NCBI GenBank assembly: GCA_013239625.1
Contig: MU053652.1
Coordinates: 6,935,902-6,999,901, forward strand
DNA: 64,000 bases
Reading direction: 5' to 3'
Origin: Lama guanicoe
Taxonomy: Eukaryota
Part shown: positions 15,859 to 16,796 of the stretch, piece after piece
Numbering within the stretch: position 1 is the stretch's first letter
How the letters are laid out: each line of letters opens with the position of its first letter
Notes under the pieces: generated by a model
What the model was told of the DNA's origin: nothing
Seen by the model: only the letters and a program-made list of their open reading frames with translations
Databases searched by the model: none
Program-made: the position numbers and the translations under genes

Positions 15859-16796
15859 AGGACTGGTTGGAGAATAGGATGGAGAGGTCGGGGAGTAGGA
15901 GGGTGAAGTGGGGGAATAAGATGGACTCTGGGGCGTATAGCCCCCAGGGGAGCGGGGCTCGTAGGCAGGCGACGTCGGGGAGTAGCTGGGAGACATGGCA
16001 CCACTGGGTGAGGGGATATATGGGCTTGATGGGCCCGGGGAGCCTGGGGAGCCTGGCGTGGGAGACCAGGCCGGGGAGTAACCGGGGCTGAAGCCGCTGG
16101 CATCTGAAGCAGCGCTAGGAGAGAAGCCTGCTGCCCCCGGGGTCATCCCGCTCCCAACACTAGGGGACCAGGCGCCATAGGCTGGGGTTGCACCCTGGTT
16201 CCAGGGTGTCATGGCTGGAGAAATTCCTCCCATGGGACTGGGTGCTGAGCCGAAGAACATGCCGGTGGGGCCGGCGGCCCCCAGGCCGGGGATGTTGGTG
16301 GGGATCTCCATGCCGTACTTGCACTTCTCCGCATCAAGCAGGAGGTCAAAACAGCCAGTGCCGGCCGGAGCCAGCTGGCCCAGCATGATGTTCTCGGACA
16401 CCCCCTTCATGGGGTCGCTCTCTCCATGTGCAGCTGCTTCCATGGGCACATCCACCGTTTCCTCAAAGGAGCACTTCATCAGCGGCCCAGTATCCTGGCG
16501 GTTGACCCCGTGTCGGGTGATGGCCATCAAGTGGCCGCGACAGGTCATGGTATCGCACAAGAGAGCCAAGTGCCGGTAATTGACGTAGGAACCATCGAAG
16601 GAGATGACGTGGTACAGCTCCCGCTCCAGGGCCTTCCGCACGGCTTCAATGCCCAACACCGTGAAAATCTCCACAATGTCATTGGACGTGGTGCGCACAG
16701 GGTCCACGTCCTTCTCACTCAGCACCCGCATCAAGCTCACACCATCAGTCTCCAGGATCCACTCCTGCAGGGCCTTGAACTCCCCGTCCTCCGTGA
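15859..16796 (-). pseudogene. POLR2A: Intronless internal fragment (processed copy) of RNA polymerase II largest subunit mRNA: ~312 codons from [12 protein letters not shown] to CTD heptad 6
   Basis: ORF 15832..16827 translates to recognisable RPB1 sequence ([73 protein letters not shown]...) with no introns. Only two apparent substitutions versus remembered human RPB1 (VDVL->VDVP, SPGG->SPSG). GC/CpG-rich island in AT-rich flanks. The ORF-track start is a TTG in flanking MIR, and the last 8 aa come from flank. Confidence 0.97.

What the first reader, a model, noticed from the sequence alone, without database searches (positions are those of the whole stretch)
15859..16796. POLR2A mRNA fragment patched into a MIR with no poly(A), no TSD and microhomology junctions: candidate RNA-templated double-strand-break repair scar
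Seen: an intronless internal POLR2A fragment truncated at both ends. It stops mid-CTD at ...acc agt cct, with no A tail and no flanking direct repeat. The MIR resumes collinearly on both sides, apparently lacking ~5-10 bp (about ccgggatt versus the remembered consensus). At the right junction, tga (16794-16796) fits both POLR2A (cg-tga-t) and MIR (tga-accc/gccc). At the left junction, ag/g (15859-15860) is likewise ambiguous. Established: L1 target-primed reverse transcription normally leaves a 3' poly(A), a TTTT/AA-type site and a TSD. Tail-less, TSD-less cDNA captures with microhomology and target deletion are the signature of endonuclease-independent or templated-sequence insertions at breaks (L1 RT or Pol theta). 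This region of mammalian POLR2A spans several introns, so the template was spliced RNA. Inference: a germline RNA-templated repair event that captured an essential single-copy gene.
Basis: partly seen in the sequence, partly recalled or inferred. Interest (0 to 1): 0.8.

Follow-up and report, generated by a model that had tools for sequence, protein, structure and literature searches.

The report
Tail-less spliced POLR2A fragment inside a MIR
A 937-base intron-free piece of this animal's own RNA polymerase II gene sits inside an old repeat with none of the usual retrocopy marks, so it looks like a young example of the already known capture of a cDNA piece at a chromosome break.

Summary
Window 15860-16796 (POLR2A sense on the minus strand) equals six consecutive exon pieces of this genome's own POLR2A with five GT-AG introns removed exactly. 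It has 3 mismatches in 937 bases. It starts mid-exon and ends mid-CTD. There is no A run, no L1-endonuclease-type site and no flanking repeat longer than 3 bases. Both flanks are parts of one MIR, judged against a profile built from 26-27 MIR copies of this same genome.

Two details did not hold. The 5-10 bp target loss is unresolved, because the best profile path crosses the junction with no loss. The left junction shows no microhomology. Only TGA, present at 15857-15859 and again at 16794-16796, is ambiguous.

This fits class 2 templated-sequence insertions, RT-product-mediated break repair and endonuclease-independent insertion, all already described in humans and mice (PMC5110952, PMC4516963, PMC1920257). 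It is a new member of a known kind.

Realness, germline status and the exact target change therefore stay inferred.

The parts
15860..16796 (-). Intron-free fragment of POLR2A (RPB1 residues about 1323-1634 of 1970: end of the Rpb1 domain 5 region, linker, first heptads of the CTD)
   Evidence: Own-genome DNA search and blastn to parent locus C7056. Exact spliced alignment with 3 mismatches in 937. Pfam RNA_pol_Rpb1_5, E 6.4e-28. Solved mammalian RPB1 chains match residues 1322-1635.
16659..16660 (-). Exon-exon junction 1 (264-nt parent intron absent). The other junctions lie at 16455|16456, 16268|16269, 16154|16155 and 16004|16005.
   Evidence: each parent intron starts with GT and ends with AG and is absent from the insert.
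15778..15859 (+). Left part of the host MIR (core region)
   Evidence: nhmmer against a MIR profile built from 26-27 copies found in 308 kb of this genome, with the locus itself masked: 38.8-39.9 bits, E about 1e-13. Six other own-genome copies match at 84-93%.
16797..16833 (+). Right part of the same MIR, collinear with the left part
   Evidence: Local score 15 against the 3' part of the own-genome consensus; 0 of 5000 shuffles reach it. Joining the flanks raises the profile score from 38.8 to 43.8 bits.
16794..16796 (.). TGA: matches the parent POLR2A and repeats the last three bases of the left flank (15857-15859). It is either a 3-nt microhomology or a 3-bp duplication.
15832..16827 (-). 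Stop-free frame of 331 codons running through the insert and about 30 nt into each flank; no start codon at its head
   Evidence: Expected for a copy with only 3 substitutions, so it is no sign of selection.
15705..15774 (+). (ATT)n microsatellite at the 5' edge of the MIR, about 85 nt from the insert (context only)
   Evidence: It lies where the own-genome MIR consensus is itself ATT-rich, so it is not a decayed poly(A) tail of the insert.

Best explanation
A partial cDNA of spliced POLR2A mRNA was joined into a chromosome break inside an old MIR by an end-joining type of repair. It covers about codons 1323-1634 and is cut at both ends. It did not enter by classical L1 target-primed reverse transcription.

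Shown:
- The template was spliced RNA of this genome's own POLR2A.
- Both ends are internal to the mRNA.
- There is no tail, no target-site duplication of 4 bp or more and no L1-endonuclease-type site.
- The host MIR continues on both sides.
- The copy is very young: 0.32% from its parent, with the changes derived in the copy.

Inferred:
- The first-strand cDNA is the window's plus strand.
- Its 3' end, corresponding to the 5' end of the mRNA piece, ends in TGA. It may have paired with a 3-nt overhang of the right-hand break end (microhomology). The other end was joined without overlap.
- The reverse transcriptase was most likely L1 ORF2p acting in trans, or an endogenous retroviral RT.
- The event happened in the germline or early embryo.
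For: - Spliced identity to the parent with five GT-AG introns removed and 3 mismatches in 937.
- The 5' end is mid-exon and the 3' end mid-CTD. The parent is not A-rich after the 3' break point.
- No A run and no repeat of 4 nt or more at the borders.
- The primer-side flank does not end in a T run, unlike the TTTT/A site given in PMC5110952 and PMC1920257.
- Both flanks are collinear parts of one MIR.
- The window holds no other POLR2A piece, as shown by blastn of the 64 kb against 40 kb of the parent locus.
- The assembly shows no other young intron-free copy.
- The two amino-acid changes, L to P and G to S, are derived in the insert, because the parent and solved mammalian RPB1 chains carry L and G. 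That fits a neutrally drifting genomic copy and not mRNA contamination.
- Published parallels: class 2 TSIPs include cDNAs with several spliced exons and lack TSD and poly(A) (PMC5110952, passages). Spliced Pcnt and Inadl fragments without poly(A), some with short microhomology, were captured at Cas9 breaks in mouse zygotes (PMC4516963, passages).
Against:
- Microhomology is weak: 3 nt at one junction and none at the other.
- Whether target bases were lost is unresolved (0 to about 9 bp). The NHEJ-type marks named in PMC5110952 (microdeletion, microhomology, untemplated bases) are therefore only weakly present.
- A 3-bp TGA duplication would fail the strict 'no TSD of any length' rule used in PMC1920257.
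Confidence: 0.68

Rival explanations
1. The insertion was started by L1 ORF2p in the usual way, with a nick and target priming, but in an atypical form. Priming would have been internal on the mRNA without a poly(A) tract, at a non-consensus nick, with a 3-bp duplication.
For: - TGA occurs on both sides of the insert and could be a minimal target-site duplication.
- 5' truncation with short microhomology at the 5' junction is usual for L1-mediated copies (stated in PMC1920257, passages).
- A long open L1 reverse-transcriptase frame lies in the same window, so L1 has been active fairly recently in this genome.
Against: - The primer-side flank has no T run.
- The mRNA has no A-rich stretch at the 3' break point, and the flank end does not pair with it.
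- A 3-bp duplication is far below the 5 bp or more used to define class 1 events (PMC5110952).
Confidence: 0.1
2. Assembly or library artefact: a cDNA-like or chimeric sequence was built into the contig, and the animal's chromosome has an intact MIR.
For: - No reads could be laid.
- The shares of sampled words held by public runs (0.82-0.89) straddle the ceiling of 0.869 that a genome without the insert could reach, so they decide nothing.
- The parent CTD in the same assembly carries a suspicious 150-nt exact repeat.
Against: - The insert differs from the parent at 3 sites. All are transitions, one is at a CpG, and two change residues that are conserved in the parent and in solved mammalian chains. 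Contaminating mRNA of the same animal should be identical to the parent.
- The window has no N.
- The insert sits seamlessly within one MIR.
Confidence: 0.08
3. An ordinary L1-made processed pseudogene, with CTD, 3'UTR, poly(A) and TSD, later lost its 3' part through a deletion.
For: Secondary deletions are common in old retrocopies, and the 5' truncation alone is ordinary.
Against: - The deletion would have to end within 0 to 9 bp of the original target junction, because the MIR resumes collinearly.
- The copy is only 0.32% diverged, which leaves little time.
- No L1-type site or remnant duplication is present.
Confidence: 0.06
4. DNA-templated patch: the fragment was copied from another intron-free POLR2A retrocopy by a replication or repair template switch, not from RNA at the break.
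For: Templated insertions from distant DNA are known (PMC5110952, passages).
Against: - The own-genome search found only the parent exons and two old, degenerate intron-free pieces. These show 63-73% DNA identity and 38-41% protein identity, with stops.
- Only the best candidates are scored by that tool, so absence is not proven.
Confidence: 0.04

Closest known systems
Class 2 templated-sequence insertions / polymorphisms (Onozawa and Aplan; PMC5110952, abstract and passages read)
   Same: Sequence templated from a distant locus. Spliced exons show an RNA intermediate. No TSD of 5 bp or more, no poly(A), no TTTT/A site. Read as a patch at a double-strand break in the germline or early embryo.
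   Different: Those were found as human polymorphisms with known empty alleles. Here the empty allele is unknown, so microdeletion and microhomology cannot be measured. This insert, at 937 nt across six exons, is a clear multi-exon case in a non-primate, non-rodent mammal.
RT-product-mediated double-strand-break repair in mouse zygotes (Ono et al. 2015; PMC4516963, abstract and passages read)
   Same: Partial spliced mRNA pieces were captured at breaks: Pcnt mRNA positions 6803-7599 skipping three introns, and Inadl 1527-1836 skipping four. They were truncated at both ends and had no poly(A), some with 1-5 nt microhomology and occasionally a short duplication.
   Different: Those breaks were made by Cas9 at known sites. 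Here the break is natural and its cause unknown.
Endonuclease-independent (non-classical) L1 insertions (Sen et al. 2007; PMC1920257, passages read)
   Same: Three of the four criteria are met outright: 3' truncation, no poly(A) tail, and a site unlike the L1 endonuclease consensus.
   Different: The template there is L1 RNA itself, here a cellular mRNA. There 18 of 21 loci had target deletions, which are unresolved here. The strict rule of no TSD of any length may fail on the 3-bp TGA.
Classical L1-mediated processed pseudogene
   Same: Intron-free copy of a spliced mRNA, 5'-truncated, at an unlinked site.
   Different: [quoted passage not shown]

Membership tests
Classical L1-mediated processed pseudogene (target-primed reverse transcription) | Intron-free copy of a spliced mRNA | tested here: met
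   Five GT-AG introns are absent.
Classical L1-mediated processed pseudogene (target-primed reverse transcription) | Intact mRNA 3' end with poly(A) tail | tested here: not met
   The copy ends mid-CTD at parent 362286, and no A run follows.
Classical L1-mediated processed pseudogene (target-primed reverse transcription) | Target-site duplication (5 bp or more in PMC5110952) | tested here: not met
   Only TGA (3 nt) is shared by the flank end and the insert end.
Classical L1-mediated processed pseudogene (target-primed reverse transcription) | Insertion at a TTTT/A-type site | tested here: not met
   The primer-side flank does not end in a T run.
Class 2 templated-sequence insertion / RT-product-mediated break repair | Insert templated from a distant locus through RNA | tested here: met
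   The parent lies on another contig (C7056) and the exons are spliced.
Class 2 templated-sequence insertion / RT-product-mediated break repair | No TSD, no poly(A), no cryptic poly(A) signal use | tested here: met
   The 3-nt TGA is below the 5-bp threshold.
Class 2 templated-sequence insertion / RT-product-mediated break repair | End-joining marks at the junctions (microdeletion, microhomology or untemplated bases) | tested here: inconclusive
   There is a 3-nt overlap at one junction, none at the other, and no extra bases. Target loss of 0 to 9 bp cannot be resolved from a MIR profile.
Class 2 templated-sequence insertion / RT-product-mediated break repair | Heritable (germline), with an empty ancestral or allelic site | not testable with these tools
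The own genome holds no second copy of the flanks. There were no metagenome hits and no relatives are held.
Endonuclease-independent L1 insertion (NCLI, PMC1920257) | The inserted sequence is L1 | tested here: not met
   The insert is POLR2A. It works like an NCLI but is not a member.
MIR (host element) | Sequence similarity to MIR copies, both flanks in collinear order | tested here: met
   Own-genome profile: left flank E about 1e-13. Right flank: 0 of 5000 shuffles reach its score. The name MIR for this repeat family is recalled, not given by a tool.

The most novel reading that the evidence does not exclude
The scar may record break repair in which the mRNA itself was copied at the break by a repair polymerase. 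Pol theta is a candidate, since it can reverse-transcribe RNA (PMC8195485, listing and start of abstract seen). In that reading no L1 or retroviral RT was involved. The event would be recent enough to be still polymorphic or species-specific, so filled and empty alleles could be compared directly in living animals.
Probability: 0.1. Interest if true: 0.6.

Novelty: new member of a known kind. Interest (0 to 1): 0.3.

Why it matters
It adds a clean, datable natural example of cDNA capture outside the classical L1 route. The template is known to the base, six exons are crossed and both junctions are intact. It comes from a mammal outside the primates and rodents in which such events were described.

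It also serves as a snapshot of the parent mRNA. The copy carries the start of the CTD once, as solved mammalian RPB1 chains do. This flags the 150-nt exact repeat in the assembled parent gene as either a later change or an assembly error.

It does not change what is known about the mechanism.

Tried and rejected
- **Read support.** The look-up of sequencing runs listed 24 runs. Of these, 20 runs, in 7 studies under 4 coded organism labels, hold 0.82-0.89 of 201 sampled words. A genome without the insert could already hold 0.869 of all 31-letter words of the stretch: 904 flank words plus 722 words shared with the parent gene, out of 1871.
- **Empty site.** Separate own-genome searches with each flank found no second copy and no haplotig. 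Two exact-pattern scans of metagenome contigs with flank words found 0 matches. The genome has no relatives held.
- **Earlier findings of the scan.** Four look-ups gave nothing that bears on this locus. One unrelated note concerned another gene.
- **First attempts to place the flanks on MIR.** blastn against six fetched copies gave only weak right-flank hits. A MAFFT alignment of those copies was uninformative at the junction. Both were replaced by an nhmmer profile.
- **(ATT)n at 15705-15774 as a decayed poly(A) tail.** Rejected. It lies beyond 85 nt of MIR core, at the ATT-rich 5' edge of the MIR itself.
- **Stop-free 331-codon frame as a sign of function.** Rejected. With 3 substitutions an open frame is expected, and the frame has no start at its head.
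- **Print search.** A search for POLR2A + retrocop + pseudogene found 3 papers (2 listed), neither listed title about such a copy (listing only). That one search is the sole basis for saying I found no description of this copy.

Full report
**What is there**

Window 15860-16796 carries a fragment of POLR2A, the gene for the largest subunit of RNA polymerase II, on the minus strand. The stop-free frame 15832-16827 (331 codons) matches Pfam RNA_pol_Rpb1_5 at E 6.4e-28. It also matches residues 1322-1635 of solved mammalian RPB1 chains of 1970 residues, with two amino-acid differences. The insert is 61-62% G+C, in a neighbourhood of 28-42%.

**Source and splicing**

The window's own genome is held: 2.05 Gb, with the window on contig C1339. 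A DNA search with the insert found the insert itself and, on contig C7056, a series of pieces at 96-100% identity separated by unmatched DNA. blastn with flanks confirmed this.

With exon ends set at the GT and AG dinucleotides, the insert equals the following parent pieces, in order:
- 360406-360542
- 360807-361010
- 361195-361381
- 361474-361587
- 361746-361895
- 361992 onward

Five introns of 264, 184, 92, 158 and 96 nt are missing exactly. The template was therefore spliced mRNA of this genome's own gene.

The 5' end of the fragment is inside an exon, because the parent exon continues upstream of 360406. The 3' end is inside the first CTD exon at parent 362286.

**Age and direction of change**

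Three of 937 positions differ from the parent, and all are transitions:
- window 16445, Leu to Pro
- window 16336, synonymous
- window 16005, Gly to Ser, at a CpG and at the last base of an exon

The parent and the solved mammalian chains carry Leu and Gly, so the changes arose in the copy. This is what a drifting genomic pseudogene shows and what contaminating mRNA would not.

At recalled mammalian neutral rates of about 1-2.2e-9 per site per year, 0.32% corresponds to roughly 1.5-3 million years. The Poisson range for three events is wide, and the estimate is biased upward by the 49 CpGs in the insert. This dating is inference.

**Missing hallmarks of the classical route**

- No A run follows the 3' end of the fragment, and the parent mRNA is not A-rich just after the break point.
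- The flank that would have primed first-strand synthesis, the plus strand left of 15860, does not end in a T run. This is unlike the TTTT/A site named in PMC5110952 and PMC1920257.
- No direct repeat of 4 bases or more borders the insert.
- The only shared letters are TGA, at 15857-15859 and 16794-16796. The latter also matches the parent.
- Within 40 nt on each side, the longest shared word is 4 nt, which 1908 of 2000 shuffles reach.
- At the left junction the parent's next base differs from the window's base, so there is no overlap there.

**The host repeat**

I did not rely on a remembered consensus. I collected copies from this genome instead:
- Six copies came from an own-genome search with the left flank, at 84-93% identity.
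- An iterative nhmmer search followed, over 308 kb: the window with 15700-17000 masked, the parent locus, and 200 kb upstream on the same contig. It gave 26-27 copies.

Against that profile:
- The left flank scores 38.8-39.9 bits (E about 1e-13).
- The two flanks joined in silico score 43.8 bits.
- Adding TGA lowers the score to 41.5-41.8 bits.
- Adding the first two insert bases stops the alignment at the junction.

The right flank alone gave no nhmmer hit, because the profile is weak at its 3' end. In local alignment to the 3' part of the consensus it scores 15, in collinear order; 0 of 5000 shuffles and 24 of 3000 random 64-nt window pieces reach that score. The flanks are thus two parts of one MIR.

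How many MIR bases were lost at the junction cannot be read from a consensus. The best profile path has no gap at the junction and places older deletions a few bases upstream. Posterior probabilities there are low, and a global alignment has 12 to 288 co-optimal paths. The loss is 0 to about 9 bp.

**What else was excluded**

- The window holds no other POLR2A piece. blastn of all 64 kb against 40 kb of the parent locus gave 12 hits: 7 are the insert and 5 are repeats at 74-88% identity.
- The window has no N.
- The assembly shows no other young intron-free copy. The only others are two old degenerate ones, at 38-41% protein identity with stops.
- The (ATT)n array at 15705-15774 belongs to the ATT-rich 5' edge of the MIR. 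It is separated from the insert by 85 nt of MIR core, so it is not a decayed tail.

**Mechanism**

The anatomy fits capture of a partial cDNA at a double-strand break:
- One end was joined with a possible 3-nt overlap. The 3' end of the first-strand cDNA ends in TGA, as does the target.
- The other end was joined with no overlap.
- No untemplated bases are present.

The published parallels are these:
- Class 2 templated-sequence insertions in humans are described as lacking TSD and poly(A). Their templates include cDNAs with several spliced exons (PMC5110952, abstract and passages read).
- Mouse zygotes captured spliced Pcnt and Inadl fragments without poly(A) at Cas9 breaks, often with 1-5 nt microhomology (PMC4516963, abstract and passages read).
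- Endonuclease-independent L1 insertions are defined by 3' truncation, no TSD, no poly(A) and a non-consensus site (PMC1920257, passages read).

Sequence alone cannot tell whether a ready-made cDNA was ligated in or the RNA was copied at the break. It also cannot tell which polymerase did the copying. For Pol theta's RT activity I saw only the listing and the start of the abstract of PMC8195485. The window does hold a 1014-codon open L1 reverse-transcriptase frame (RVT_1). This shows only that L1 has been active fairly recently in this genome.

**What stays open**

No reads could be laid, and no empty site was found. The word shares of public runs are uninformative: 0.82-0.89 against a ceiling of 0.869 without the insert. 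Three things therefore rest on inference: that the insert is real in the animal, that it is germline, and what exactly changed at the target.

**Verdict**

This is a new member of a known kind, of modest interest.

Noticed in passing
L018 / parent locus G000:C7056:362003-362265: The assembled parent POLR2A carries an exact in-frame repeat at the start of the CTD: 362003-362115 equals 362153-362265, 150 nt apart, adding about seven heptads. The retrocopy and solved mammalian RPB1 chains have this stretch once. It is either an assembly error in a repetitive exon or a recent CTD expansion.
   Followed up: partly
window 31640-34684 (+): A 1014-codon open frame with a full RVT_1 reverse-transcriptase domain (E 5.1e-49), L1 ORF2-like by its sequence. 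The endonuclease part is not in the frame. This looks like a fairly young L1 copy about 15 kb from the insert.
   Followed up: partly
window 15705-15774: A long (ATT)n microsatellite grown out of the ATT-rich 5' edge of the host MIR, 85 nt from the insertion point. AT-rich repeats can be fragile, so it might bear on why a break arose here. That is speculation only.
   Followed up: no
L039 (G000:C8051:18185-18556) and L040 (G000:C6476:43065514-43065888): Two near-identical, old, degenerate intron-free POLR2A-like pieces, at 38-41% protein identity to the insert with stops. They are probably one ancient pseudogene that was later duplicated.
   Followed up: partly
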